This document shows positions 27,905 through 49,000 of a stretch of DNA of 64,000 nucleotides, piece by piece. The stretch's first letter is position 1; every line of letters starts with the position of its first letter. Location: assembly GCA_002269645.1 (NCBI GenBank), contig NIVC01000555.1:56556-120555 (forward strand), in the 5' to 3' direction. Position numbers and translations under genes: made by a program. This stretch comes from Macrostomum lignano (taxonomy: Eukaryota). The notes under the pieces are model-generated. The model made no database searches. It was not told where the DNA came from and saw only the letters and a program-made list of their open reading frames with translations.

Positions 27905-29326
27905 TCAATTGAGTTCGGCCACTTTCGGACAGCCCAATCGGACGGCCTTCACCGGACCGGAGGCTCGCACTGTTCTCCTCGATGGTTGCTGCCACAACGA
28001 GGCTGTCGATGCCGAAGCGGACAGCGACATCGTGGCTGCCGAAGATAGCAGCGGCACCATCGCTGGAGGCGGCGGCGGCGGCGGCGGCGGCGTCGGTGTC
28101 GGCAGCGGTCGCCTCGGCCGCCGAAAGTCCGGATGCGGCGAGCTGGCGAAGCTGCTCCGACGTCGGGCGCATTTCGAACGGACGCCGTCGAGAACTGTCG
28201 ATTGAACGCCGCCGCCGCCGGCGCTGAGTCGGTGATGACGACGACGTCGAAGACAAGCGGCCGCGACTTCGGCGACGACTGCCGAGCTGACTGCATCCTC
28301 AGCGGGACTGCATCCTCCTGACGGGCTGCGGCTGCGACCGCGGCTGCGACTGCGGCTGAGGCGGGAGACGACGCGACTGACCGCAGCTCGGAAGCCGCCG
28401 CTGCCGGTACTTCGCCTTCGGTGCTGCAGAGGCTGCAAGGATTTGATCGGCGTTGGATCAGGGACTGGACTGTCATCGTCGACGGCGGCAGCTGCATCAG
28501 GGATGTCTGGGGCGGAGCGGATGAGAAGGGCGACGCCGCGGTTGAGACGAGCGGCGGTCTCGGCAGAGTCGGCAGTCGCTGCGCCGTACAGGCAGGGCCC
28601 GAGGCAGGTGGCCAGACTGGCCGAGTCCATCCGGTTGCCATGGAAACCAGCAGCGGCCAGCCGGTGCAGCAGCAGGCACAGCAGGCGCAGCGCTCTGGCC
28701 CGGCAGCCGCCGTCGCCGCCGAGATTCGCCGCCGCCACCGCCCTGAGGGCCGACAGTCGCTGCTGAACGTCGCCGTCGCAGTCTTCGCGAGCCGAGTTCA
28801 CAGCGCCGGCCAAAGCCTCAGCGGTTGCAGCCGGCAGCAGCGGCCGCGGCAGCTGCCTTAACCAGGCCTTCAACGTGGAACAAACGTCCTGCGGCGGCGT
28901 GTCAGCCGGGATGTCGCAGCTCCGGTCGGCGTCCAGCCTGGCACGCAGCAGCAGCAGCCGCGGCCGGGCGCCCTCCACCCGGAACAGGCCCTCGGCTGAC
29001 TGCGCCGCCTCCGAGGACAGGAAGCGGCAGCTGGCGGCCAGCAGGCTTGGCACCGGGCCCACTCCGGCCACGACTGTCTGCGGCTGGTCACGCAGCGCCC
29101 TGCCGAAATGGAAGCCGCTACTATTGCTGCAACTACCGCCGCCATCGGATGACGAGACTTCGCAGCCGCCGCTACTTCTTCGCTGAAGGCGCCTTGGAAA
29201 CAATAGAGCAGTCAGCTTGCTGGCAGATGAAAAATTGCTGCTATTGCTACTAGAAGCAATGCTTCTAACGGAGCTTGGCGAGACGCGAATGCCAAGCGGA
29301 CGATCTCCAGCAATGCGGCTGCACAT
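27905..29326 (-). CDS. RhoGAP-domain protein (473 aa, intronless, GC-rich; ARHGAP11-like motifs)
   Basis: EGLFRVEG (arginine finger), DVCSTLKAWLRQLPRPLL, NRMDSASLATCLGP; low-complexity Ser/Arg/Pro C-terminus. Confidence 0.88.
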   Translation of the reverse strand: MCSRIAGDRPLGIRVSPSSVRSIASSSNSSNFSSASKLTALLFPRRLQRRSSGGCEVSSSDGGGSCSNSSGFHFGRALRDQPQTVVAGVGPVPSLLAASCRFLSSEAAQSAEGLFRVEGARPRLLLLRARLDADRSCDIPADTPPQDVCSTLKAWLRQLPRPLLPAATAEALAGAVNSAREDCDGDVQQRLSALRAVAAANLGGDGGCRARALRLLCLLLHRLAAAGFHGNRMDSASLATCLGPCLYGAATADSAETAARLNRGVALLIRSAPDIPDAAAAVDDDSPVPDPTPIKSLQPLQHRRRSTGSGGFRAAVSRVVSRLSRSRSRGRSRSPSGGCSPAEDAVSSAVVAEVAAACLRRRRHHRLSAGGGGVQSTVLDGVRSKCARRRSSFASSPHPDFRRPRRPLPTPTPPPPPPPPPAMVPLLSSAATMSLSASASTASLWQQPSRRTVRASGPVKAVRLGCPKVAELN

Positions 29327-29984
29327 TGTGTGGGCTTGTTGAACGAATAACCGTCGGATTAAAAATTCTAAGAGCAGAATTAAAAGCTTCTATAATAATA
29401 TGTAGTAGTTTATAAGACTGCTGTTTGACTTTATCAGTGGGGGGTCAGTTGTCAGTCAGTTGGTCGCGTGCGGGCCTGGTTTTAAGCCCTGGTGGAACTG
29501 GCAAACCACCCCCCAGGCCCCGCCGGCCCAATGAAAATCACCCCTTCGCACAAACCCCCTCCAGGAGGACTTTTCTCGCATCGGACCCCCGTCGTGCCCA
29601 CACTGGCACACCCACCACCCCAAAAAACGGTCAGCTTGTTCAACCAACGCCTCCACCCTCAGCCAGCCAATCAGAGCCGGGGGTGGGGCACGATAATGTT
29701 TTCACATCAGGGTGAAAACGGTTGTTAAATAATGCTGGCACTACTCCTATATTCTAAGCTAAGGTTAAGTGTTCATCAATGAGATGCAATGGATGGTTGA
29801 TAGATAGATCGTTGAAAAGTTTTTGACCCGATAATACCCTTAGCGAATCCCTGCAGATTCCCAGATATTGGATTTTGATTTTTGATACCCAAACTATTCC
29901 TGATTAGAGAAGATCCCAATCCCCTACCAATCCCTGAACATCTTCAGATGAATATCAAACGAATCTCCCACGATCCTCAGATAT

Positions 29985-30300: not shown

Positions 30301-31176
30301 TAGTTCTGATATATCCTTAAACCTTTGATATTGATCTGAGCCTCTTTCTGACAACCTAGCTTTTTACCCTTTCGGAGGTTAAAGTGATGCGCCTTGCACC
30401 TCGCAGCTGTCTTCCCCGTAGATAAGGATCAAGACTCCTACAAAACACCTGCTCGTGCTCAGCTTATAACGTGCGTATAGGCATTGATAAAAAAAACTGG
30501 AAATTTCGACAGGCACCATCCTAGCTGCATGCAGGTATATTATTTAAACTCAATTTTGTGACTCTAATTCTATAAAGGCGTGACACGCGTGCCGCGCCCA
30601 CACGTCAAGTCTTAATTGAATGCCTCTCAGACATGCAGGTTGATTCTTGGAAAATCCTTAGGCTTCCAACCCCCCGTATTAGCTCAATTTGTCTTGTCGC
30701 TTCCTTCGATCGAAGTCGCTTCCTTTGAAGACAAAAGCATGCAGGTTAAAGTGTTGCCGCATCAATTCTTCTCGGTTCCTTTCAGTCCGCTTTTTCTATT
30801 GCGCACGTGGATGCCTGTAGATCTTCATCGCACACCCTATAAACTGCGGATCCCCTCCACGCATCCCAAGGCTGTTTTATATACGGGCTTTTGTTAAGAC
30901 AAACTCGAAATTCGAATCTTAATTCTCAAATTCTATGCTTCCATATTTTCGGATATATAGGCTCATTAATTACCTTATCGGGTATAAATCAATCAACATG
31001 AGCAAGACTATACCAGCTGTACAAGTCGATCTAATCTCACCTTGATATATGCTGGAGCGAACGTGTTTAAGAGGCTGTTCTTTGCACCGGGAAATATCTG
31101 CGAAATGAAAAACCGTTTTCTTTATTTCCAGGATTCGTCTTTAGGGATTTAATATTGATTTATTCCTCAATACCTG

Positions 31177-32007
31177 TGTCATGAATGTGTTATGACAATG
31201 TGCTCTTTGCTTAGTTGCTGCACCGGGCCAGTGGGCCGTCCTCTCCCCCTCCCCCCTCCTTAGATATTTTCTGACTCACTCACCTGCACTTCTGCGCGTG
31301 CGTACCCCTCCCCTCCCTGCCTAGACCTTTTCTGTTGAGTCAACCCCCCATGCTCTGCGTGCGACCCCCCCCCTGTGCGACCCCGCCCCATTTTTGTTAG
31401 CTTTGCTGCCCCGCCCCTGTTTGTGATTGGCTGCCAGTCCCAGTCTGCCGTGCTGCGCCCCGGCGATTGGCTGGTACAGCTCATGCGTTGCCTTGGCTGA
31501 TGTCTAAGTCCCCTTTTCTGCCTTTATCCCGCGCCCTCGACCCCCAGTTTGCTGCCTATTTTTTCGGCCCCTTGAGACCCCATTCTCGTCGTCTTCGTGG
31601 CTCCTCGGCGATTGTGCCAGTGTTGGTTGCTGAATTGCTATTCCTCGCAGAATTGCTAGACAAATATATAAGTAAAGAATATCGAGATCACCACTGCTCT
31701 GACGGCGCTGTTTCTTGTACGACTGAAATCGCGGCTGGTAAGCCTTCCAATTTGTACGTCATTTGGGTCTGCATCTGTACTAGGCACCTTAGAGGGATTA
31801 AGTGCGTCGTACGCCGGTCCCACCCCAAGCAGCTCTGCGTCGTACGCGAGTCTGTAGGCTGTCGTGCGTCGTACGCTCGAGCAGCCTAGTCCCGACGGAC
31901 ACCGCGTCGTACGCGTGTCAGTGGAGGACCGCAGCCAGGGTCAGTACACGAACCCGGGTCTGGGAAAGGGGCACGAAAGGACCGAGCCCTTGAGCCTCAT
32001 CATCACA
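31177..32007 (+). repeat. 5' LTR of gypsy element 2
   Basis: Differs from the 3' LTR by one substitution and three C-run lengths (by eye, not exhaustive). Confidence 0.97.
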
Positions 32008-32115
32008 AATTGGCATCCTTGGTGGGACCCTGCGCTGTGGAAGACTAAGTAAGGAAGAAAGCTCGAGGCGCGGAATATTGTGAGAAATTAAGGTTGGAAA
32101 CTGTGACGCCGTGGT

Positions 32116-33195
32116 ATGGATGCTGGAGGTGCTGCTGGAGGTGCTGCTGGAGGTGCGGCTGGAGGTGCGGCTGGAGGTGCTGCTGGAGGTGCGGCTGGAG
32201 GTGCGGCTGGAGGTGCTGCTGGAGCCTTTGGTGTTAATGATCTGGTCGCCGCCTTGACTGCCCAGATTCAGCAGAACATGCAGCAAGCGGGTGCCCTCAG
32301 GATTCAGAGGCCGGTGAAGTATGCTCCAGGAATGAATTTCGTGAAGTGGTTGAGGCTCTTCGTAGCTTATTGCGATGCCATGCAGATTCCGATGCAGAAT
32401 CGGCGCGCTCAGTTGCTCAGCAATCTAGACTTCAGCACATTCCAAGTTGTCGACAACATGAACCTTGGGGACGACTTGCAGTTCGAAGAATTTACCCAGG
32501 CCTTGAGGGATAGGTTCACTATGCACCGTACCGTCGTCGACTACCGCACAGAACTGAGCAATAGAGAGCAGAGCGAGAAGGAGTCGGTAGAAGATTTCTC
32601 TGAAGCTGTGATTGAGTTGGTCGCAAACGCCTTTCCTGATGCGCCTGCCGATGTGCGCGATGATCTTGCGAAAGAGCGATTTATGCGAGGCGTCCGTGCG
32701 GGGGTGGCTGTGCGGGAGCGATTGTACATGAGCCAGCCGGAGACCTTAGCAGACGCGATGCGTCTAGTGCATCAGCTGGAAGCGGCGGTTAGGGCAAGTC
32801 ACGGTCCACCAGGTCAGGGATCAAAAAGAGCTACCGTCTGTGCTGTCACAGCTGAGACTAGAAATGAGGCTTCCGAAAGCAGTGAGGTCGAGATGCTTCG
32901 AAAACAGCTTGCGGCCATGGAGATGCGAATGAAAGAGATGGAGGAGCGGAGGTCTGGAGAAGCGGAAGAGCCGACCCCGGCGAGTCGGAAGGCTGTGCAG
33001 TGTTTTTCGTGTCGAGAGTGGGGCCATATCTCATCAAAGTGTCCCAAGAAAACCAGCCAGACAAGTGGAAACGGGAAATCGCCAGTACGATGTCACAAGT
33101 GCAACGGTGAAGGCCACCTATCCTTCAAGTGTCCGAAGTCGGGAAACGGGCCGAGGGGACCGACCGGGGAGAGTCGGGACCCTGCCAGGAAGTGA
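32116..33195 (+). CDS. Gag (359 aa)
   Basis: N-terminal (GGAA)n repeat; capsid-like QSEKESVEDF region; two CCHC knuckles CFSCREWGHISSKC and CHKCNGEGHLSFKC. Confidence 0.93.
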   Translation: MDAGGAAGGAAGGAAGGAAGGAAGGAAGGAAGGAAGAFGVNDLVAALTAQIQQNMQQAGALRIQRPVKYAPGMNFVKWLRLFVAYCDAMQIPMQNRRAQLLSNLDFSTFQVVDNMNLGDDLQFEEFTQALRDRFTMHRTVVDYRTELSNREQSEKESVEDFSEAVIELVANAFPDAPADVRDDLAKERFMRGVRAGVAVRERLYMSQPETLADAMRLVHQLEAAVRASHGPPGQGSKRATVCAVTAETRNEASESSEVEMLRKQLAAMEMRMKEMEERRSGEAEEPTPASRKAVQCFSCREWGHISSKCPKKTSQTSGNGKSPVRCHKCNGEGHLSFKCPKSGNGPRGPTGESRDPARK

Positions 33196-33203
33196 AGTCT
33201 CCC
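33141..33203 (+). other. Candidate -1 ribosomal frameshift signal (G GGA AAC plus stem-loop/pseudoknot)
   Basis: The heptamer is in the gag frame as X XXY YYZ and the protease ORF is in the -1 frame. Stem ccgac/gtcgg with flanking aggg/ccct; loop gggaga is complementary to tctccc at 33198-33203. Confidence 0.7.
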
Positions 33204-36200
33204 AGGGGCGAGGAACCGGTGTTGCTCACTAACTCTGTAAATAAATCCAAGTGCGTCTCTGGTGATGGGAATTCAAAGAGCAACCTGGTTCATGAGGCGT
33301 GTTCGTCGGTATCAACGGAGCCTCTGACAGTTTTTATTTCCGGTGCGGTTTCCGGCAAGCCAGTGGCTCTGCTGTTAGACAGTGGTGCGAGTGTGTCAGT
33401 GCTGAGCTGTGATGTTTTCCTGAGGCTGCCGCAAGAGGTGAGGGAGAGACTGACTGCAATGGACGGTTCCCTTTCAACGGCCAATGGAGGTGCGATGAGG
33501 ATGAGAGGCTGCATTGTGCTGGACGTGGAGATTGGCGGCGAGCGGTGGTCAGCGAATTTCTTCGTAGTGGACGGATTGCGTTATGATGTCATTCTCGGGT
33601 CCGAATTTTTCAAACAGCATCGTTGCGTCATCAACTATTCGAGTTTGTCTTTCGAGTGGGCGATGTTAGAGTTCCGATACGGCAGAAAGGCGAGCTGCCC
33701 GTGGTGTGTCGAATCAAAGCCGAGACAACGGTATTTCTGGAACCGGCGCAAGAAGTGGTCATGCCAGCCAGGGTAGAGAAAAAGGGCGCAAGAAACTGCG
33801 GATCGGTCGGCATAACGGAAGAAAAGCCGGTGAAGGCCGCTGAGAAGGATTTGGCGATGGCTCGAGCTCTGGTAGCGCCCGGTGTGGATGGACGGCTGCC
33901 GATGAGATTGCTGAATACGTCCAGTTGTAGGAAGAGGGTCAAGAAAGGAGAGACGATTGGCTGGTTTATTCCTTTGGAACCGAACGGAGGTATCAACGTG
34001 GTGCGCTTGGACGACGACGTAGAGGCCAAGAATGAAGCGGAGGCATGGGACCCGATCGAAGAATTCCGCGAGTGGGGTTCATGTGGCCTGTCGGAGGAGG
34101 AGGAAGCCGACTTCAGGGAGCTGATTTCCCAACATCGGGCTGTCTTTGCTAAGGACTCCAAGGATCTCGGCTGTACGACGGTGATGAAGCACGAGATCGA
34201 CACTGGAGATGCCAGGCCTGTGAAAGAAGCGGCGAGGCGGATTCCCCCGTACCTGCGGCAGGAAGTGGACAAGGAGTTGGATGACTTGCTGGAAGCTGGG
34301 AGAATCAGCGAGGTTCAGTCCCCATGGTGCTCTCCGGTGGTGTGCGTGAAAAAGAAGGACGGTTCCCTGAGGTTCTGTTGTGACTACCGGAAACTGAATG
34401 AAGTGACCAAGAAGGATGCAGTGCCGTTGCCCAGGACAGATGACCTGTTGGAGAGCCTAGGCGGTGCCAAGATTTTTTCGACCATGGACATGCAGTCGGG
34501 ATACTGGCAGATGGCGGTGGAACCCAGCGACAGACTGAAGACGGCCTTTGGCGTTTCACACCGGGTACAGCAGTACGCCTGGAACGTTATGCCATTTGGA
34601 TTGACAAATGCACCGGCTTCATTCAGCCGGCTAATGAATGTGGTGTTGGGGAAGTTGTGCTGGAAGACGTGTTTGGTGTATCTGGACGACCTGCTAGTGT
34701 GGTCACGAACGGTAGAAGAGCACCTGGAACGGTTGCAAACGGTTTTTCGACGGTTGCGAGCAGCGAACATCAAACTGAAGCCGAAGAAGTGCGCATTCCT
34801 GCTGAAGTCAGTGACCTTCCTGGGACACGTAGTGTCAGCTGATGGGATCGCCACGAGTCCAGAAAAGATTGCCGAAATTCGTGACTGGCCAACTCCGAGA
34901 ATGTGAAGGAAGTAAGGTCATTCCTGGGACTGTGCGGGTATTACCGGCAATTCATCGCAGATTTTTCCCGCATTGCTGAGCCGATGCTGCGACGGACCCG
35001 ACATGATTGCCCGTGGAGCTGGGATGAGGAGTGTCAAGCCGCATTCGAGGCCCTGAAGGAAAGGTTGCAGGGATCTGAGGTCATGGCGTTTCCAAACTTT
35101 GCGGAGGACGCTGGAGAATTCGTTTTAGACACAGACGGTAGCACAAAAGAAGGAATTGGCGCTGTGCTTTCGCAGGTGCAGAAAGATGGGAGTGAGAAGG
35201 TAATAGCTTACGGAAGCAGGACGTTGTCGCGAGAAGAACGGAATTACTGCACGACACGAGTCGAGTTGCTGGCCGTGGTGTTTTTCGTACAGAAGTTTCG
35301 TTATTACCTGATGGGGCGAGAGTTTCTAGTGCGCACCGATCACAGCAGCTTGAAGTGGCTGCATTCGCTGCGGGACGTAGAAGGACAACTGGCCAGATGG
35401 CTGGAACTCTTGGCTCCGTACAGGTATCGCATCGAACATCGTCCGGGAGTGAAACATCAACACGCGGACGCTCTCTCCAGGAAGCCACGTCGGCGCCATC
35501 AAGGAAGCGAGAGTTGTCCTGGATGTGCACAAGAGCAGATCGGCGTGAACGCGTTGGGATTGCAGAAGTGGACCTCGGAGGAGATCAGAGAGAGCCAGAA
35601 GATGGACAGCGACATTCGTCAGGCGATGGAGCTGCTGGCACACGGCGACGGAGAGATAACCGAAGAGCATTTGCGGCATATCACCGACGGCAAGGAGGAT
35701 TGTCGAAAGACGTCGTGACCTTGAGGTGTCGGACAGTGAGGTGTTGCTGTGTCATACGGCCAGTAGACGTCAGCCGCAAGTGGTGTTGCCACGGAATATG
35801 CTGAGAGCGGTGCTGGAAGAAGCTCATGGTGGACGGAGTGGAGGGCACGTTGGGATTTTCAAGACCAAGGAGAAGGTGCGGCAATCGTTTTGGAGGCCGG
35901 GACTTGGCCGCGAGGTCGAAGAGCACGTAAAAGCCTGTTTGGACTGCACCAAGGCCAAAGCTGGCAAGAAACCAATTGCACCGATGGAGCCGATTCCGAG
36001 TTCAAGCCCATTCGATATCGTGATGACGACGTCATCGGGCCGTGCCACGGAGCAAGAAAGGAAACTTCTACATCCTCACGGTGCAAGATGCGTTCTCAAA
36101 GTGGCCTGACGCTTATGCCATCCGGAACCAGAAGGCGGCAACGATCGCAAGGGTGCTATTCGAACGCTGGATTGCCAATCACGGGTGCCCCCGGGTACTT

Positions 36201-37328
36201 CACTCAGACCAAGGAAGGAACTTTGAGTCGGGGATCGTCAGGAAGCTGTGCGAGCTGTTGGGTGTGAAGAAGACCAGGACGAGCGCCTACCACCCAGTGG
36301 CAACGGACAGGTGGAACGATTTAATGGGTTCCTGAAGAACAGTTTGCGCTCGTATCTGGTACAGAAGGGTCAGAACGCCTGGGAGGAGTACCTGCAAGTG
36401 CATTGATGGCTTATCGATCGACGGTCCAGGCGTCCACCGGTTACACGCCCTACTACATGCTGCATGGTCAGGAGATGCCGCTGGGATTCGAACCAGAGGA
36501 CCTTAGGCGAAAGACGGACAGCTATCCCTTGTTTGTGCAAGAGATTCAGCAGAACCTGCTTCATGCCCATGAACACGTTCGAGAAGGGCGCGAGACGGTT
36601 CAGCGACGCCAGAAAATGAACTACGATCGGAAAGTGAAGGGCAAGCGATTCAGAAGGGCGACTCTGTCTTGCTGTACTATCCGTGCTTGGAGATGGGAGA
36701 GAAAAGCAAATTCCATATCAACTGGCGCGGCCCAGTGAAGGTCCTGGAGAAGCTGTCAGATGCGTTGTATCGAGTGCAGGATCCGACACAGCCGCAGAAG
36801 ACCAAGGTGGTGCACTTCAACAATCTCCGGCCGGTTCAGGTTCAGACGGAGGCGGCAGACGGTCAAGAGACAAGAGAGGAAATTGGGAGGGCCAGTTCGA
36901 GAAAAACCAGACCGCGACGCGGTAACTCCGCTGCTGGACGAAGCCGAAGGCAGAGAGTGCAACGGGGCGAGACCCAGAGGTGGACCGCAGCGCGAGGGCC
37001 GCAGGACCAGGAATCCGAGCAGGAAGATGAAGAGTTTGAAGATCTTCAGCTGCGGTTTCAAGATCCAAGAGATCACGCTCCGCCGGACACCCGAAATCTG
37101 GCCGAGGACCGTGAGCCCGGACCTGAGCGTCCAGAAGCAGACGATGACGAAGAAGAGCACTTTGATGAGGCGCGGTACGACGAGGAGCAAAACGAAGAGG
37201 ATGAGGCAGAGCCGAACGACGCCAACGTACCCGAGCAAGAAGTGAGGACGGCACAGGAGGAAGCAGGGCGACCAAGACGTCTGCGGCGACCGCCGGATCG
37301 GTTTGGGGTCCCGGTGTACTACTACTGA
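33141..37328 (+). CDS. Pol (PR-RT-RH-IN), split by several 1-nt deletions
   Basis: LLDSGAS (protease), YLDD (RT), LDTDGS...ELLAVV (RNase H), HGGRSGGHVG...CLDC (integrase Zn finger), VQDAFSKW/HSDQGRNF (DDE), WRGPVKV (GPY/F); acidic tail ending RRPPDRFGVPVYYY*. Confidence 0.93.
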
Positions 37329-37427
37329 AGAAGGGTCCGGTGTACGGCGCTTGGATAGCCAAAGGGGAAGGGAGGTACATGTCGTGCGTGTCTCATTGCT
37401 CATCGGAGTTAGGCCGGACTGTTACAG

Positions 37428-37847
37428 ATGGCGGACCTCTACGAGTGTCTTGGAGTGCAGCTGTGGGCGTCTGCGGCACAGATTCGGAAAGCGTTCTACG
37501 GTCGAGCACGCGAACTGCACCCTGACAAGAGCGCAACAGAGGAGACGCGGAAGAGATTCCAGGAGTGCGAAGAGGCGTACCGAATACTGTCGTGTCCGTT
37601 CCTTAGAAAGCTGTACGATATCTTTGGAAATGCTGTTCGTGACCGGGATGAGATGCTTCGGCTCGCAGAAGGGATGTTAGAGGATGAAGACATGCCCGAC
37701 GATCTCCGAGAAGAGATAGAAAGACTACAAGAGAGCGACCGATTAGCTGAGGAGGCGTACGAGAGAGAACAGGCGAGGAGGGATGAGGAGCACGTCAAGA
37801 TGGAGGCAAGTGAGGAGGCCTCAGACGATGAGCGGACGAAGAGATGA
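37428..37847 (+). CDS. DnaJ J-domain ORF inside the LTR element (probably the N-terminal half of a J-chromo fusion)
   Basis: DLYECLGV...AQIRKAFYGRARELHPDK...RFQECEEAYRILS...RKLYD, with the HPD tripeptide intact; followed by an acidic helical linker. Confidence 0.9.
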   Translation: MADLYECLGVQLWASAAQIRKAFYGRARELHPDKSATEETRKRFQECEEAYRILSCPFLRKLYDIFGNAVRDRDEMLRLAEGMLEDEDMPDDLREEIERLQESDRLAEEAYEREQARRDEEHVKMEASEEASDDERTKR

Positions 37848-38413
37848 ACGAGGCGAGTGAGACACTGCCGGAGGAGTACGAGGTCGAGAAGGTCTTAGGA
37901 GTACGAGTTACGGAGCGAGGAGCGGAGTATCTGCTGCAGTGGGCCGGTGTAGAGGAGCTTGAGACGTCATGGGAAGCGGAGGAAGATTGTGCCGGATGTA
38001 GAAACCTGATTGAAGAATATCTGCAGAGAGCGTACCGGCTTCAGACAAGACCGTGCCGACCAGTGACCGTCGCGGAACTGGAGAACGTAGGACCCAGTCG
38101 GAAGAAACTGCACCAGGCAATGCGGAAGGGCGACCCGTGGGGCATCTTTGAGGTGCTGCTAGCCCTGAAGGGGAAGTGCGCCACTGCCTTGGTGGATTTC
38201 AAGGAATTCGGTCCGGAGTTGATGCTGCAGATCCTGGGCTACTTGGAGCGAGACGGTCGCAAGTATCCGGGGCACGGAGTTCGTCGGTGGAGTCGCCAAG
38301 CGTGTCAAGCTGTCTACATGTCGGTGATGGTGGTGTTCCCGCTGTTTGACCTGCGACGCCAGGGTTTGGTCCTGGGTGCCCTCCGTAGGCTGTGGGATTC
38401 GTGCTCTGACTGA
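37844..38413 (+). CDS. Chromodomain ORF with unknown C-terminal domain, inside the LTR element
   Basis: EEYEVEKVLGVR...EYLLQWAGVEELETSWEAEEDC..CRNLIEEY matches the HP1/Polycomb chromodomain pattern. Confidence 0.88.
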   Translation: MNEASETLPEEYEVEKVLGVRVTERGAEYLLQWAGVEELETSWEAEEDCAGCRNLIEEYLQRAYRLQTRPCRPVTVAELENVGPSRKKLHQAMRKGDPWGIFEVLLALKGKCATALVDFKEFGPELMLQILGYLERDGRKYPGHGVRRWSRQACQAVYMSVMVVFPLFDLRRQGLVLGALRRLWDSCSD

Positions 38414-38829
38414 GGCTATGTCTTCCTAGGGACTTTGGGGCTAGGGACTTTGCAGTGCAGACCCAGGGACAGCGGAGCGGAGGTGGACCGGCCTTAACGG
38501 GTGCTGACGGAGCGACACGGCTGTGCAGCAACCGCAGGACTCGACGACCAGCGCAGAGCGACCAGAGCAACCGGCGACAGTAGCGACAGGGAGACGAGGC
38601 ACCAGAGCGACGGCCGTACTCGGCGGGATGCAGGGAAGCAGTGCTAGTATTACTTGTGAGGGTAAATGTTTGACGGTTTCATTTTTTTGTTTTTTGTTCG
38701 AACTAGTTGCCATGCGAGTCCAAAATATTTTTCAAATGCGGTTTGTTCCTCTGTTCAATTTTTTTGTTATAGTAGCATCATTTCAATATTCGACTTTTCG
38801 AACTCGAACTTTTGTCTAGGGGGAGGGAG

Positions 38830-39660
38830 TGTCATGAATGTGTTATGACAATGTGCTCTTTGCTTAGTTGCTGCACCGGGCCAGTGGGCCGTCCTCTCCC
38901 CCTCCCCCCTCCTTAGATATTTTCTGACTCACTCACCTGCACTTCTGCGCGTGCGTACCCCTCCCCTCCCTGCCTAGACCTTTTCTGTTGAGTCAACCCC
39001 CCCATGCTCTGCGTGCGACCCCCCCTGTGCGACCCCGCCCCATTTTTGTTAGCTTTGCTGCCCCGCCCCTGTTTGTGATTGGCTGCCAGTCCCAGTCTGC
39101 CGTGCTGCGCCCCGGCGATTGGCTGGTACAGCTCATGCGTTGCCTTGGCTGATGTCTAAGTCCCCTTTTCTGCCTTTATCCCGCGCCCTCGACCCCCAGT
39201 TTGCTGCCTATTTTTTCGGCCCCCTTGAGACCCCATTCTCGTCGTCTTCGTGGCTCCTCGGCGATTGTGCCAGTGTTGGTTGCTGAATTGCTATTCCTCG
39301 CAGAATTGCTAGACAAATATATAAGTAAAGAATATCGAGATCACCACTGCTCTGACGGCGCTGTTTCTTGTACGACTGAAATCGCGGCTGGTAAGCCTTC
39401 CAATTTGTACGTCATTTGGGTCTGCATCTGTACTAGGCACCTTAGAGGGATTAAGTGCGTCGTACGCCGGTCCCACCCCAAGCAGCTCTGCGTCGTACGC
39501 GAGTCTGTAGGCTGTCGTGCGTCGTACGCTCGAGCAGCCTAGTCCCGACGGACACCGCGTCGTACGCGTGTCAGTGGAGGACCGCAGCCAGGGTCAGTAC
39601 ACGAACCCGGGTCTGGGAAAGGGGCACGAAAGGACCGAGCCCTTGAGCCCCATCATCACA
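38830..39660 (+). repeat. 3' LTR of gypsy element 2
   Basis: Direct repeat of 31177-32007, preceded by the PPT. Confidence 0.97.
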
Positions 39661-39900
39661 CCTGTCTTTATCTCTTACCTGTCCTGTCGCTTACCTGTCT
39701 TTATCTCTTACCTGTCCTGTCGCTTACCTGTCTTTATCTCTTATCTGTCCTGTCGCTTACCTGTTCTTATCTCCTACCTGTTCTTATCTTTTCAGGTATA
39801 TTTATTTTACCTGTCCTACCTGCTATTTCTTACCTGTTTATCTGTGAATCTCCTACCTGCTCATCTTTCTTATCTTATCACTTTACAAGGCCTAATTCTT
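39661..39900. repeat. 33-bp degenerate tandem repeat (CCTGTCTTTATCTCTTACCTGTCCTGTCGCTTA)
   Basis: About 3 good copies, then decay. Confidence 0.8.
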
Positions 39901-40800: not shown

Positions 40801-41734
40801 AGAGAGGATGAGAGGCAACAGAGACAGGGAGAGAATATGAGGAGGGAAGGCATGCCGCAAAAGATTAAAGAGACCCAGCATTAAAGATGCAATCAAAGCA
40901 GACAGATACTGGTATAAGAAATATGAACATGAATCGCGTCACAATATAGATACTCGTTTATAGGCATCAGAGATATGTCTCAGTGCTTCCCAGCGAAACC
41001 TGTAATCAATTCTAGGTGAACACAGGCTCGGCTCCAGTCCGCACTGTTTGAGAAATCTTTACGATTTCGTAGAATAGAGAATAAACTTCTGCTTTGATTT
41101 ACTTAGAAAAAAGGAGAAAAAAGCAGATGGGGGCAAGCCAGGGGGTATCGCAGTGAGCGCAGAGGCCTGGCAGCCGCGGGTCTCTAAGCCTGTAATAACA
41201 GGGGGATTTTAGCTCAGCCATGGGCAGTTATTCCGCTTGAGTTGCAGCCATTGCGTCACTACAATATTACTCTGCCATGGGCCTTCATGCCTCATCTCAG
41301 AGCGCTACTAAAGCTCAGCCTCCTCGAGAACCGCGATATCGAAGATCTCGGGCTTTCTTCCTCAATACGGGGAACCCGCGCGTGTCTTCGTCCGCCCCCT
41401 CCTCCTCCCCGCGGGTGGGGGTGCTGGATGAGGGCTTCGGACCCCCCCCCACCGAGGAGACGCTTGACTTGGCTTCCACACCGCCTCAGGTTCTCAAAAT
41501 CGGGATGCGGCTAGCGCTGGGCGGGTCCAGGATCGCCCTCCGGTGTCGAATTCCCCTCGATGGGGATAAGAGGAGGAAAGGAGGCGATGGGAGCCGATCA
41601 AAAACCCGGATGGTCCTCCATCTGGTGGCCCTCGCGACCCTGTAGGCGAAAAATGAATCATGCTGGTCTCTGAATTTGTCTTGGGCATCATATTTTTATT
41701 GGGCACAAGTCAGATGATATATTGTGATAGAAAA

Positions 41735-42440
41735 AGAGAAACAGGGAGAGAGACAGGGAGAGAGACAGGGAGAGAGGCAGGGAGAGAGACAGGGAGAGAG
41801 ACAGGCAGAGAGGGAGACAGGGAGAGAGACAGGGAGAGAGACAGGGAGAGAGACAGGGAAAGAGACAGGGAGAGAGACAGGGAGAGAGACAGGCAGAGAG
41901 AGAGACAGGGAGAGAGACAGGGAGAGAGACAGGCAGAGAGGGAGACAGGGAGAGAGACAGGGAGAGAGACAGGGAGAGAGACAGGGAGAGAGACAGGGAG
42001 AGAGACAGGGAGAGAGACAGGGAGAGAGACAGGGAGAGAGACAGGGAGAGAGACAGGGAGAGAGACAGGGAGAGAGACAGGGAGAGAGACAGAGAGAGAG
42101 ACAGGGAGAGAGAGGGAGAGAGACAGGGAGAAAGACAAGGAGAGAGACAGGGAGAGAGACAGGGAGAGAGACAGGGAGAGAGACAGGGAGAGAGACAGGG
42201 AGAGAGAGGGAGAGAGACAGGGAGAAAGACAAGGAGAGAGACAGGGAGAGAGACAGGGAGAGAGACAGGGAGAGAGACAGGGAGAGAGACAGGGAGAGAG
42301 ACAGGGAGAGAGACAGGGAGAGAGACAGGGAGAGAGACAGGGAGAGAGACAGGGAGAGAGACAGGGAGAGAGACAGGGAGAGAGACAGGGAGAGAGACAG
42401 GGAGAGAGACAGGGAGAGAGACAGGGAGAGAGACAGGGAG
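41735..42440. repeat. 12-bp purine repeat (ACAGGGAGAGAG)n
   Basis: Direct reading. Confidence 0.95.
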
Positions 42441-43069
42441 TGAGGTTAAGAGACATAAATTGCCCTGAGACGAGGTCTGACAAAAGATAGTGCTTAACTT
42501 TAAATAAATGAAAAAGATTCCAGACTCTGAAGAAATGGAAAGCCATTTTTGGAGGGCCACGTGAGCGAGACTTTCCGAACCGAAATTCGACGCGTGAGGT
42601 GCGAATCTCAGCGCGAGGGTGTTGAGCCGGGCACGAGAGGCAGGTGGACAAATAAAATCGAGAATTCGAGTGCCCCCCTTACGCGTGCTTTTTTATTTCG
42701 TTAGTTCGTTACACTCCCGCCCCACGTAAATGTGTTAAGCCGCTGGTCCAGGGGGCACTTGACTCTCGGGCATACCAGCCTCCCCACAAATAGGGTCTCA
42801 AAGAATTAGCAGCCACAAGCTTTCAGCTATCTCTTGCAGAGGAATCTAGCGAAAGTAATTGGCATCTGCTAAGCCATCTGTGCCTGTGCGACTGCTAACT
42901 TGATTTGCCAATAGAGTGCAAAGTCTGTTGGCAAATATGAGTCTAATATGCCATAATTACCCGGATAAGTCCGCTGTTTACCCTGGGGTGATGAGCAATG
43001 TGCACGCAGCTGAAATGCTTGCAATTTTGTTCCAGAATCGATCATGGCGCTCAACGGAGCATCTGGGCA

Positions 43070-46000
43070 TGGATGGCGCTAAACTGTTTATTGATGGCGC
43101 TTAACTGTTTATTGATGACGCTAAACTGTTTATTGATGGCGCTAAACTGTTTATTGATGGCGCTAAACTGTTTATTGATGGCGCTTAACTGTTTATTGAT
43201 GACGCTAAACTGTTTATTGATGACGCTAAACTGTTTATTGATGGCGCTAAACTGTTGATTGATGGCGCTATACTGTTTATTGATGACGCTTAACTGTTTA
43301 TTGATGGCGCTAAACTGTTTATTGATGGCGCTTAACTGTTTATTGATGACGCTAAACTGTTTATTGATGGCACTAAACTGTTTATTGATTACGCTCAACT
43401 GTTTATTGATGACGCTCAACTGTTTATTGATGACGCTATACTGTTTATTGATGACGCTATACTGTTTATTGATGGCGCTAAACTGTTTATTGATGACGCT
43501 TAACTGTATATTGATGGCGCTAAACTGTTTATTGATGACGCTTAACTGTTTATTGATGGCGATAAACTGTTTATTGATGGCGCCTAACTGTTTATTGATG
43601 ACGCTAAACTGTTTATTGATGGCGCTTAACTGTTTATTGATGACGCTAAACTGTTTATTGATGACGCTAAACTGTTTATTGATGACGCTAAACTGTATAT
43701 TGATGGCGCTTAACTGTTTATTGATGACGCTAAACTGTTTATTGATGGCGCTAAACTGTTTATTGATGACGCTAAACTGTTTATTGATGGCGATAAACTG
43801 TTTATTGATGGCGCTAAACTGTTTATTGATGACGCTAAACTGTTTATTGATGACGCTAAACTGTTTATTGATGGCGCTTAACTGTTTATTGATGACGCTA
43901 AACTGTTTATTGATGGCGCTAAACTGTTTATTGATGACGCTTAACTGTTTATTGATGACGCTCAACTGTTTATTGATGACGCTATACTGTTTATTGATGA
44001 CGCTATACTGTTTATTGATGGCGCTAAACTGTTTATTGATGACGCTAAACTGTTTATTGATGGCGCTAAACTGTTTATTGATGACGCTTAACTGTTTATT
44101 GATGACGCTCAACTGTTTATTGATGACGCTATACTGTTTATTGATGGCGATAAACTGTTTATTGATGGCGCTAAACTGTTTATTGATGACGCTAAACTGT
44201 TTATTGATGACGCTAAACTGTTTATTGATGGCGCTTAACTGTTTATTGATGACGCTAAACTGTTTATTGATGGCGCTAAACTGTTTATTGATGACGCTTA
44301 ACTGTTTATTGATGACGCTCAACAGTTTATTGATGACGCTATACTGTTTATTGATGGCGCTTAACTGTTTATTGATGACGCTATACTGTTTATTGATGGC
44401 GCTAAACTGTTTATTGATGACGCCTAACTGTTTATTGATGGCGATAAACTGTTTATTGATGGCGCTAAACTGTTTATTGATGACGCTAAACTGTTTATTG
44501 ATGACGCTAAACTGTTTATTGATGGCGCTTAACTGTTTATTGATGACGCTAAACTGTTTATTGATGGCGCTAAACTGTTTATTGATGACGCTTAACTGTT
44601 TATTGATGACGCTCAACTGTTTATTGATGACGCTATACTGTTTATTGATGACGCTATACTGTTTATTGATGGCGCTAAACTGTTTATTGATGACGCTTAA
44701 CTGTTTATTGATGACGCTAAACTGTTTATTGATGACGCTAAACTGTTTATTGATGGCGCTTAACTGTTTATTGATGACGCTAAACTGTTTATTGATGGCG
44801 CTAAACTGTTTATTGATGGCGCTAAACTGTTTATTGATGACGCTTAACTGTTTATTGATGACGCTCAACTGTTTATTGATGACGCTATACTGTTTATTGA
44901 TGACGCTTAACTGTATATTGATGGCGATAAACTGTTTATTGATGGCGCTAAACTGTTTATTGATGACGCTAAACTGTTTATTGATGACGCTAAACTGTTT
45001 ATTGATGGCGCTTAACTGTTTATTGATGACGCTAAACTGTTTATTGATGGCGCTAAACTGTTTATTGATGACGCTTAACTGTTTATTGATGACGCTCAAC
45101 AGTTTATTGATGACGCTATACTGTTTATTGATGGCGCTTAACTGTTTATTGATGACGCTATACTGTTTATTGATGGCGCTAAACTGTTTATTGATGACGC
45201 CTAACTGTTTATTGATGGCGATAAACTGTTTATTGATGGCGCTAAACTGTTTGTTGATGACGCTAAACTGTTTATTGATGACGCTAAACTGTTTATTGAT
45301 GGCGCTTAACTGTTTATTGATGACGCTAAACTGTTTATTGATGGCGCTAAACTGTTTATTGATGGCGCTAAACTGTTTATTGATGACGCTCAACTGTTTA
45401 TTGATGACGCTATACTGTTTATTGATGACGCTATACTGTTTATTGATGGCGCTAAACTGTTTATTGATGACGCTTAACTGTATATTGATGGCGCTAAACT
45501 GTTTATTGATGACGCTTAACTGTTTATTGATGGCGATAAACTGTTTATTGATGGCGCTAAACTGTTTATTGATGGAGCTTAACAGTTTATTGGTGGAGCT
45601 AAACTGTTTATTGATAGAGAAAAATTGTTTATTTATAGAGGCAACCTGCTTATTGATAAGAAATAAACTGTTTATCCATGATGCAAAACTGTTTATTAAT
45701 GGAGTTAAACTGTTTATTGATGGCGCTAAAATGTTTATTGGTGGAGCTAAACTGTTTATTGGTCAAGCTAAATTGTTTATTGGTGGAGCTAAACTGTTTA
45801 TTGATGACGCTTAACTGTTTATTGATGGCGATAAACAGTTTATTGATGGCGCCTAACTGTTTATTGATGACGCTAAACTGTTTATTGATGGCGCTTAACT
45901 GTTTATTGATGACGCTAAACTGTATATTGATGGCGCTAAACTGTTTATTGATGACGCTTAACTGTTTATTGATGGCGATAAACTGTTTATTGATGGCGCC

Positions 46001-49000
46001 TAACTGTTTATTGATGACGCTAAACTGTTTATTGATGGCGCTTAACTGTTTATTGATGACGCTAAACTGTTTATTGATGACGCTAAACTGTTTATTGATG
46101 ACGCTAAACTGTTTATTGATGGCGCTAAACTGTTTATTGATGACGCTAAACTTTTTATTGATGGCGCTAAACTGTTTATTGATGACGCTTAACTGTTTAT
46201 TGATGACGCTTAACTGTTTATTGATGACGCTAAACTGCTTATTGATGACGCTTAACTGTATATTGATGGCGCTAAACTGTTTATTGATGACGCTTAACTG
46301 TTTATTGATGGCGATAAACTGTTTATTGATGGCGCTAAACTGTTTATTGATGGAGCTTAACAGTTTATTGGTGGAGCTAAACTGTTTATTGATAGAGAAA
46401 AATTGTTTATTTATAGAGGCAACCTGCTTATTGATAAGAAATAAACTGTTTATCCATGATGCAAAACTGTTTATTAATGGAGTTAAACTGTTTATTGATG
46501 GCGCTAAAATGTTTATTGGTGGAGCTAAACTGTTTATTGGTCGAGCTAAATTGTTTATTGGTGGAGCTAAACTGTTTATTAGTGGAGCTAAATTGTTTAT
46601 TGGTGGAGCTGAATTGTTTATTGGTGGAGCTAAATTGTTTATTGGTGGAGCTAAATTGTTTATTGGTGGAACTGAATTGTTTATTGATGACGCTAAACTG
46701 TTTATTGATGGCGCTTAACTGTTTATTGATGACGCTAAACTTTTTATTGATGGCGCTAAACTGTTTATTGATGACGCTTAACTGTTTATTGATGACGCTT
46801 AACTGTTTATTGATGACGCTAAACTGCTTATTGATGACGCTTAACTGTATATTGATGGCGCTAAACTGTTTATTGATGACGCTTAACTGTTTATTGATGG
46901 CGATAAACTGTTTATTGATGGCGCTAAACTGTTTATTGATGGAGCTTAACAGTTTATTGGTGGAGCTAAACTGTTTATTGATAGAGAAAAATTGTTTATT
47001 TATAGAGGCAACCTGCTTATTGATAAGAAATAAACTGTTTATCCATGATGCAAAACTGTTTATTAATGGAGTTAAACTGTTTATTGATGGCGCTAAAATG
47101 TTTATTGGTGGAGCTAAACTGTTTATTGGTCGAGCTAAATTGTTTATTGGTGGAGCTAAACTGTTTATTAGTGGAGCTGAATTGTTTATTGGTGGAGCTG
47201 AATTGTTTATTGGTGGAGCTAAACTGTTTATTGATGACGCTAAACTGTTTATTGATGGCGCTAAACTGTATATTGATGGCGCTAAACTGTTTATTGATGA
47301 CGCTTAACTGTTTATTGATGGCGATAAACTGTTTATTGATGGCGCTTAACTGTTTATTGATGACGCTAAACTGTTTATTGATGGCGCTAAACTGTTTATT
47401 GATGGCGCTTAACTGTTTATTGATGACGCTAAACTGTTTATTGATGGCGCTAAACTGTTTATTGATGACGCTTAACTGTTTATTGATGGCGATAAACTGT
47501 TTATTGATGGCGCTAAACTGTTTATTGATGGAGCTTAACAGTTTATTGGTGGAGCCAAACTGTTTATTGATAGAGAAAAATTGTTTATTTATAGAGGCAA
47601 CCTGCTTATTGATAAGAAATAAACTGTTTATCCATGATGCAAAACTGTTTATTAATGGAGTTAAACTGTTTATTGATGGCGCTAAAATGTTTATTGGTGG
47701 AGCTAAACTGTTTATTGGTCGAGCTAAATTGTTTATTGGTGGAGCTAAACTGTTTATTAGTGGAGCTAAATTGTTTATTGGTGGAGCTGAATTGTTTATT
47801 GGTGGAGCTGAATTGTTTATTGGTGGAGCTAAATTGTTTATTGGTGGAACTGAATTGTTTATTGATGACGCTAAACTGTTTATTGATGGCGCTTAACTGT
47901 TTATTGATGGCGCTAAACTGTTTATTGATGACGCCTAACTGTTTATTGATGGCGATAAACTGTTTATTGATGGCGCTAAACTGTTTATTGATGACGCTTA
48001 ACTGTTTATTGATGACGCTATACTGTTTATTGATGACGCTATACTGTTTATTGATGGCGCTAAACTGTTTATTGATGACGCTTAACTGTATATTGATGGA
48101 GCTAAACTGTTTATTGATGACGCTTAACTGTTTATTGATGGCGCTAAACTGTTTATTGATGACGCTTAACTGTATATTGATGGCGCTAAACTGTTTATTG
48201 ATGACGCTTAACTGTTTATTGATGGCGCTTAACTGTTTATTGATCACGCTAAACTGTATATTGATGGCGCTAAACTGTTTATTGATGACGCCTAACTGTT
48301 TATTGATGGCGATAAACTGTTTATTGATGACGCTAAACTGTTTATTGATGGCGCTAAACTGTTTATTGATGACGCTAAATTGTTTATTGATGACGCTCAA
48401 CTGTTTATTGATGACGCTATACTGTTTATTGATGACGCTATACTGTTTATTGATGGCGCTAAACTGTTTATTGATGACGCTTAACTGTATATTGATGGCG
48501 CTAAACTGTTTATTGATGACGCTTAACTGTTTATTGATGGCGATAAACTGTTTATTGATGGCGCTAAACTGTTTATTGATGGAGCTTAACAGTTTATTGG
48601 TGGAGCTAAACTGTTTATTGATAGAGAAAAATTGTTTATTTATAGAGGCAACCTGCTTATTGATAAGAAATAAACTGTTTATCCATGATGCAAAACTGTT
48701 TATTAATGGAGTTAAACTGTTTATTGATGGCGCTAAAATGTTTATTGGTGGAGCTAAACTGTTTATTGGTCGAGCTAAATTGTTTATTGGTGGAGCTAAA
48801 CTGTTTATTAGTGGAGCTAAATTGTTTATTGGTGGAGCTGAATTGTTTATTGGTGGAGCTAAATTGTTTATTGGTGGAGCTAAATTGTTTATTGGTGGAG
48901 CTAAACTGTTTATTAGTGGAGCTAAATTGTTTATTGGTGGAACTGAATTGTTTATTGGTGGAGCTGAATTGTTTATTGGTGGAGCTGAATTGTTTATTGG

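What the first reader, a model, noticed from the sequence alone, without database searches (positions are those of the whole stretch)
37428..38413. LTR retrotransposon carrying a DnaJ J-domain plus chromodomain module in the env position
Seen: between the pol stop (37328) and the 3' LTR of a young gypsy element lie a J-domain with intact HPD and a chromodomain with a 125-aa unknown C-terminal domain. The chromodomain is not on integrase, so this is not the chromovirus arrangement. Established: HPD J-domains stimulate Hsp70 ATPase; polyomavirus T antigens and DNAJC2/ZRF1 use J-domains to remodel chromatin-associated complexes; chromodomains read methyl-lysine (here Tyr and Trp of the aromatic cage are kept, the third position is Val). 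Inference: the element may encode a factor that brings Hsp70 to methylated chromatin to counter silencing or steer integration. I know of no described LTR family with this cargo, but cannot search.
Basis: partly seen in the sequence, partly recalled or inferred. Interest (0 to 1): 0.92.

Follow-up and report, generated by a model that had tools for sequence, protein, structure and literature searches.

The report
Flatworm retrotransposons carrying a DnaJ co-chaperone
Several families of jumping genes in this flatworm genome have long kept an extra gene for an Hsp70 helper (J-domain) protein, in one lineage joined to a chromatin-reading domain, which suggests a previously unrecognised way for such elements to use the host's chaperone machinery.

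Summary
Real, and larger than reported. The window holds a young gypsy LTR element (31177-39660). After pol it has a J domain with HPD, an acidic linker, an HP1-type chromodomain and a helical domain. In this copy the gene is split by a frame break near 37833, but 17 of 24 near-full sister matches carry one 326-328 aa frame, under purifying selection (26 synonymous to 9 nonsynonymous changes). A related ORF follows integrase in eight divergent lineages of this genome. Similar proteins also occur in unnamed outside assemblies. The constant core is J domain plus a five-helix domain with no family or fold match. The chromodomain occurs in two related lineages only; others carry nothing there or a TatD-like barrel, and one intact TatD family has lost HPD. 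The LTR has a splice donor that one sequencing run shows in use, and an acceptor sits at the ORF start, but that join was not seen. Best reading: an element-encoded Hsp70 adaptor acting on chromatin (mechanism untested, about 0.4). Ten literature searches found no description; Repbase, Dfam and one relevant 2020 paper could not be checked.

The parts
31173..31176 (.). left target-site duplication (4 bp, repeated at 39661-39664)
31177..32007 (+). 5' LTR, 831 bp, TATA-like site at about 31665; no heat-shock element with up to 1 mismatch
31738..31743 (+). splice donor inside the LTR, about 70 nt after the TATA-like site; kept in the 3' LTR of 24 of 24 copies; used in one contig of run X3 from a solo LTR elsewhere
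32011..32027 (+). primer-binding-site-like tract
32116..33195 (+). gag with two zinc knuckles
33111..37328 (+). pol (protease, RT, RNase H, integrase, no chromodomain), in seven frame pieces in this copy
37425..37427 (+). splice-acceptor-like YAG directly before the ORF3 start, in 24 of 24 copies
37428..38413 (+). ORF3; one 326-328 aa frame in 17 of 24 copies, broken near 37833 (codon 136/137) in this copy
37434..37619 (+). J domain, HPD at 37518-37526, followed by a family-specific CPFxRxLYD extension and long helix
37677..37876 (+). acidic linker (46% Asp+Glu over residues 84-150 of the sister-copy protein)
37877..38029 (+). HP1/Swi6-type chromodomain, cage positions Tyr, Trp, Val
38072..38410 (+). 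five-helix domain with a basic loop, conserved across the ORF3 family, no known family or fold
38818..38829 (+). polypurine tract
38830..39660 (+). 3' LTR

Best explanation
ORF3 is an old accessory gene of a group of gypsy elements (shown: position, conservation, selection). It is probably made from a spliced or trans-spliced subgenomic RNA that skips the PBS, gag and pol (inferred; donor use shown, the join to ORF3 not seen). The protein is a targeting co-chaperone: the J domain stimulates host Hsp70 through HPD (follows from established J-protein biochemistry, not assayed), and the helical domain with its basic loop picks the client or nucleic acid (inferred). The swappable modules are a chromatin reader (HP1-type chromodomain) or a nuclease-type barrel (TatD-like), which points to the nucleus. 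Most likely role: Hsp70-driven loosening or displacement of a repressive chromatin complex at the element, in the way polyomavirus T antigen uses its J domain (recalled), with the chromodomain a later addition that improves docking in one lineage.
For: Same position after integrase in 8 of 8 ORF3-bearing lineages read, whose integrases are 38-54% identical (six compared). HPDK invariant in 10 of 10 aligned proteins 24-30% identical to P0001 apart from one close relative. Within family 26 synonymous to 9 nonsynonymous changes, p 5e-10; in 5 copies ORF3 12:3 against integrase core 10:8 and integrase tail 8:21. dN/dS 0.12-0.20 against the C255/C455 lineage for J, chromo and helical parts, synonymous sites near saturation. 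Chromodomain closest to Swi6 and HP1 in the PDB; full aromatic cage in the C455 relative. Basic loop with 4-7 Lys/Arg in 10 of 10 helical domains. No 19-residue hydrophobic stretch above 1.56 in 11 of 11 proteins. Donor used in one run, acceptor-like YAG within 1 nt of the start place in 6 of 8 lineages.
Against: No experiment or binding prediction supports the client or the compartment. A family with 10 copies of an open 571-575 aa frame among 59 matches has a J fold without HPD, so Hsp70 stimulation is dispensable there. Four of eight lineages have no chromatin-reading module. The window family and P0002 lack the third cage aromatic. Contigs of three RNA-like runs cross the pol-ORF3 boundary with no joint listed. 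The TatD match is below Pfam's cut-off in the intact family (E 5e-5, 23 bits against 27).
Confidence: 0.4

Rival explanations
1. ORF3 is a private co-chaperone for the element's own proteins: it brings Hsp70 to Gag particles, RT or the pre-integration complex for folding, assembly or uncoating; chromodomain and TatD are secondary.
For: The core (J plus helical domain) is universal while the chromatin module is not. Hsp70/Hsp40 dependence of hepadnavirus RT and of several capsids is established (recalled).
Against: Most gypsy elements manage with host J proteins (recalled); does not explain selection on a chromodomain (3:0 within family; dN/dS 0.20) or HPD loss in an intact family.
Confidence: 0.25
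2. ORF3 is an Hsp70 sink or decoy that disturbs chaperone control of a host regulator (heat-shock factor, or Hsp70/Hsp90 loading of PIWI/Argonaute), as phage RB43 Rki stabilises sigma32.
For: Rki precedent (PMC3486835, abstract). Other LTR families of this species exploit the heat-shock pathway (PMC12801592). An HPD-less member could still act as a decoy.
Against: No heat-shock element in this LTR; no DnaJ-plus-Chromo transcript among the heat-regulated rows (long cells are cut); does not explain the chromodomain.
Confidence: 0.15
3. ORF3 steers integration: the helical domain binds the integration complex and the chromodomain reads heterochromatin, as chromovirus integrases do in cis.
For: HP1-type chromodomain; integrase has no chromodomain of its own.
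Against: Absent from 6 of 8 lineages; the 3' flanks seen are varied and no bias test was possible; the J domain is left unexplained.
Confidence: 0.12
4. ORF3 is kept because it benefits the host, or is a neutral captured passenger.
For: Public gene models exist for two copies.
Against: It is multicopy (at least 12 different 3' flanks among 17 copies that reach the LTR end), travels with several families, and decays together with old copies. Neutrality is rejected.
Confidence: 0.05

Closest known systems
Gypsy elements with non-env ORF3 cargo in bdelloid rotifers (DEDDy exonuclease, GDSL esterase; PMC5408684, passages)
   Same: Family-specific third ORF between pol and the 3' LTR, non-fusogenic, modular, typically from spliced messages.
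   Different: Cargo here is a J-domain co-chaperone with an unknown helical domain and swappable chromo or TatD-like module; the term DnaJ does not occur in that paper.
Chromoviruses (chromodomain on integrase; PMC6338049 part 1 of 4, and recalled)
   Same: LTR element with a chromodomain.
   Different: Chromodomain is in a separate ORF, inside a J protein, HP1-like, and in one sub-lineage only.
Virus-encoded J-domain proteins: phage RB43 Rki (PMC3486835, abstract); polyomavirus T antigens and pestivirus Jiv insertions (recalled)
   Same: A mobile element carries its own HPD J domain joined to a non-chaperone domain, presumably to aim host Hsp70.
   Different: No sequence or fold link beyond the J domain was found; none of these is a retroelement.
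Errantivirus / Osvaldo env ORF3 (PMC13524379, passages; recalled)
   Same: Position, and probable spliced expression.
   Different: No transmembrane-length hydrophobic stretch, no env Pfam match.
Heat-inducible LTR families of Macrostomum lignano (PMC12801592)
   Same: Same species; link between LTR elements and the heat-shock/chaperone system.
   Different: Those use heat-shock elements in the LTR; this LTR has none, and the paper's main text never mentions DnaJ, J-domain, chromodomain or ORF3.

Membership tests
Ty3/gypsy LTR retrotransposon | pol order PR-RT-RH-INT | tested here: met
Ty3/gypsy LTR retrotransposon | paired LTRs with TG..CA ends, PBS, PPT, target-site duplication | tested here: met
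Gmr1/Osvaldo cluster | RT phylogeny with reference elements | not tested
   No reference RT set was on hand; PBS types of relatives resemble tRNA-His and tRNA-Lys sites from recall only.
Chromovirus | chromodomain at the integrase C-terminus | tested here: not met
   integrase ends at 37328 without a Chromo hit; chromodomain lies in ORF3
Errantivirus / env-carrying gypsy | ORF3 with transmembrane anchor and fusion-protein family match | tested here: not met
J-domain protein (class C) | J domain with HPD and four-helix fold | tested here: met
   not met in the C254 family
J-domain protein (class C) | stimulates Hsp70 ATPase | not testable with these tools
   needs a biochemical assay
Class A/B Hsp40 | zinc finger and/or DnaJ C-terminal domains | tested here: not met
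   no such Pfam hit in the 13 proteins scanned
HP1/Swi6 | chromodomain with three-aromatic cage | tested here: inconclusive
   two of three in the window family and P0002, three of three in C455
HP1/Swi6 | chromoshadow domain | tested here: not met
   no Pfam hit; the C-terminal domain models as all-helical
any known fold family for the helical domain | specific structural match | tested here: inconclusive
   best Z 8.2 (rmsd 3.5, 103 aligned), in the range of generic helical bundles
TatD DNase (sister-lineage module) | Pfam TatD score above cut-off and metal-binding residues | tested here: inconclusive
   31.5 bits in a decayed copy, 23.3 bits (cut-off 27) in the intact family; the shown alignment keeps the first Glu of the GE motif, lacks the His after the next strand and has Ser-Ala for Thr-Asp, so probably inactive

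The most novel reading that the evidence does not exclude
A whole clade of animal LTR retrotransposons encodes its own Hsp70 adaptor, built on a new helical domain, that takes apart host silencing complexes; chromatin-reader and nuclease-fold modules are swapped onto it as the arms race moves, making it an anti-silencing system of a kind not yet described for animal retroelements.
Probability: 0.3. Interest if true: 0.92.

Novelty: new variant of a known kind. Interest (0 to 1): 0.75.

Why it matters
Element-encoded counter-defences are well known in plants and in viruses, but few are defined for animal LTR retrotransposons (own knowledge). Here an accessory gene with a clear biochemical handle (HPD, aromatic cage) is under selection as strong as integrase, comes in natural variants (with chromodomain, with TatD-like barrel, with neither, with or without HPD) and lives in a species with working transgenesis. 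That makes the question of how animal retroelements resist or exploit chromatin silencing and the chaperone system directly testable. It also adds an uncharacterised helical domain family, and shows that some public 'J domain-containing' host gene models in this species are transposon cargo.

Tried and rejected
Two separate genes coupled by an overlapping stop-start at 37844-37847: rejected, 17 of 24 copies are fused. Recent host capture: rejected. Env: rejected. Heat-shock element: none found in the 5' LTR or 37329-38828; the LTR is not that of the heat-induced family Mlig-id38, whose LTR is about 340 bp (part 1 of 8 read). No RNA holder is on record among the 24 runs listed; three runs guessed as RNA and one unlabelled run were laid: no joint to 37428 listed, which shows presence only. 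Context for the outside proteins was not obtained: two metagenome scans and one viral scan found nothing, so they are not shown to be retrotransposon-borne. Atlas searches, a homolog search with the TatD-type protein and three look-ups of earlier findings gave nothing. Fold searches of the helical domain gave no specific match. The full-length model failed on the chromodomain (pLDDT under 50 at 134-213), most likely because only 2 of 10 alignment rows have it. Trees of ORF3 (12 rows) and integrase (6 rows) were too poorly resolved to test co-descent. The integrase and non-coding controls were inflated by misalignment near indels and were replaced. An alignment search of the own genome was not accepted.

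Full report
Observation. The window holds a complete gypsy-type element from 31177 to 39660: LTRs 99.4% alike over 834 columns, TG..CA ends, a 4-bp target duplication, PBS-like and polypurine tracts, gag, and pol in the order PR-RT-RH-INT. After the pol stop at 37328 lie a J domain (Pfam E 3e-16, HPD at 37518-37526) and a chromodomain (E 4e-13). In this copy they are in different frames, with a break near 37833, and pol is in seven pieces. The window's genome (G000) gave 36 DNA matches, 24 of them near full length. Of these 24, 17 carry one 326-328 aa frame with all parts. Copies with the same 3' flank differ in their breaks (L002 open, L004 and L019 broken; L017 open, L021 broken), so such breaks are at least partly assembly or post-insertion noise. 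The 17 copies that reach the LTR end fall into 13 flank groups by script, 12 after merging two that differ by a one-base shift, so raw counts overstate copy number. The sister-copy protein P0001 is identical to a public record named for Macrostomum lignano.

A family, not a one-off. Protein searches of G000 revealed further multicopy ORFs of 292-332 aa and of about 560 aa. I read eight lineages next to integrase: the window family, the C255/C455/C2034 type, C27, C108, C615, C3853, C340 and C254. In all eight a related ORF follows the integrase stop (after 94-464 nt in the six lineages measured). Six integrase ends compared are 38-54% identical. Of four further integrase groups fetched because they had no J hit, one had an HPD-less ORF3 (C254), one a TatD-like remnant, one was interrupted by an insertion, and one, the most distant (39-40%), showed no such ORF in 2.4 kb. 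The constant parts are the J domain, an acidic linker and a C-terminal helical domain (median pairwise identity 0.43, 0.20, 0.30). The chromodomain is in 2 of 8 lineages, a TatD-like barrel in 2 of 8, and 4 of 8 have neither. A profile of the helical domain matched only 7 of 1.84 billion representatives: one gene model of the same species and six proteins from unnamed Logan and JGI assemblies. Three of these, or their cluster mates, were checked against G000 and are at best 46%, 56% and 47% identical to it, and P0002 is 76% identical to P0001, so the family exists outside this assembly. Their genomic context could not be fetched.

Selection and origin. HPDK is invariant in 10 of 10 aligned proteins. 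Among the 17 open copies there are 26 synonymous and 9 nonsynonymous distinct changes (ratio 0.11; p 5e-10, or 2e-6 with a more generous synonymous share). In five copies with open frames in both genes, ORF3 shows 12:3, the integrase core 10:8 and the integrase tail 8:21. Against the C255/C455 lineage dN/dS is 0.12-0.20 where dS could be estimated; two comparisons were saturated. Five of the best non-element-looking hits were fetched: 41-48% identity for J, 31-36% for chromo, no nucleotide match. The captures are old. Against a universal Hsp70 role: the C254 family has ten copies with an open 571-575 aa frame among 59 matches, and its representative lacks HPD, while decayed relatives keep it.

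Domains. The J domain matches solved J domains by sequence and fold. The chromodomain is closest to Swi6 and HP1; its cage is Tyr/Trp/Val here, Tyr/Trp/Leu in P0002, Phe/Trp/Phe in C455. The helical domain folds confidently (pLDDT 89, pTM 0.82) into five helices with a basic loop, and has no specific structural match. None of 11 proteins has a transmembrane-like stretch.

Expression. A YAG ends within one base of the start-codon place in 6 of 8 lineages, against a background of 0.089 each; the lineages are related and the window was chosen after looking, so the p of 1e-5 is optimistic. The LTR has a donor 70 nt after the TATA-like site. One contig of run X3 leaves the LTR exactly there and continues in sequence that, in G000, lies behind an acceptor 1176 nt downstream of the same donor in a solo LTR. 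So the donor works. The join to ORF3 itself was not listed in the four runs laid, whose contigs cross the pol-ORF3 boundary. Trans-splicing is an alternative: 38.8% of genes in this species are trans-spliced (PMC5730564, passages).

Mechanism. Shown: an old, selected, modular, non-membrane ORF3. Following from established knowledge: HPD J domains act through Hsp70, and the attached domains choose the client. Inferred: the client is nuclear, because both swapped modules are chromatin or nucleic-acid folds and the core has a basic loop. I put Hsp70 co-chaperone activity of the HPD members at about 0.75, the chromatin anti-silencing role at 0.4, private chaperoning of Gag/Pol at 0.25, Hsp70 decoy at 0.15, integration steering at 0.12.

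Prior knowledge. Ten searches found no LTR element with a J-domain or TatD ORF; the search for LTR retrotransposon + DnaJ + Macrostomum gave 0 papers. PMC12801592 (parts 1-3 of 6, term search, supplement 1, part 1 of 8 of supplement 5, term searches of the supplements) annotates only core domains in what I read. PMC5408684, PMC13524379 and PMC5730564 were seen as passages, PMC6338049 as part 1 of 4, PMC3486835 as abstract, PMC9289625 (AlkB in orchid gypsy) and bioRxiv 10.64898/2026.09.14.751395 (plant J proteins acting with a chromatin remodeller) as listings only. The 2020 classification paper for this species is not held, subscription journals, Repbase and Dfam were not searched, and bioRxiv supplements are closed; any of these could hold a prior mention.

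Verdict. A real, apparently undescribed kind of ORF3 cargo: new variant of a known kind. Interest 0.75.

Noticed in passing
L068 (G000:C254:570019-571692 +); also C471, C513, C441, C525, C340, C517, C518, C3879, C2475, C222, C150: Sister lineage whose ORF3 is J fold + the same helical core + a TatD-like barrel; the young intact family lacks HPD, decayed relatives C471 and C441 keep it.
   Followed up: partly
L078 (G000:C1528), solo LTR at 664-1498, acceptor at about 2403: A solo LTR of this family lies upstream of a clustered multicopy sequence (24 matches) and one run's contig splices from the LTR donor into it: possible LTR-driven host transcript.
   Followed up: partly
L030/L059 (G000:C455), also C1935 and C636: ORF3 is 53-57% identical to the window family up to about residue 270 and 95% after it, which looks like a recombinant 3' end.
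   Followed up: no
L071, L072, L065: In these TatD-type copies the start-codon place is not ATG and an acceptor-like YAG ends inside it, as expected if a splice supplies the first base.
   Followed up: partly
L025/L027 (G000:C3819): Two partial ORF3 copies lie head to head on one contig.
   Followed up: no
L067 (G000:C349:121800-124200): An element with 90% integrase identity is interrupted right after integrase by a long ORF that reads like a LINE endonuclease region (no useful Pfam hit).
   Followed up: no
window 27905-29389 (-): GC-rich RhoGAP-domain frame 1.8 kb from the 5' LTR.
   Followed up: no
window about 42900-49000, 41700-42500, 39660-39790: Long 21-bp tandem array, purine-rich simple repeats, and a 33-bp repeat at the element's right flank.
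   Followed up: no
PMC12801592 supplement 2, row MligTCv3c-15711.0: A mildly heat-upregulated transcript annotated only as DnaJ domain (score 65.2); the C27-type ORF3 scores 65.3 here with another Pfam version. Not shown to be the same.
   Followed up: no
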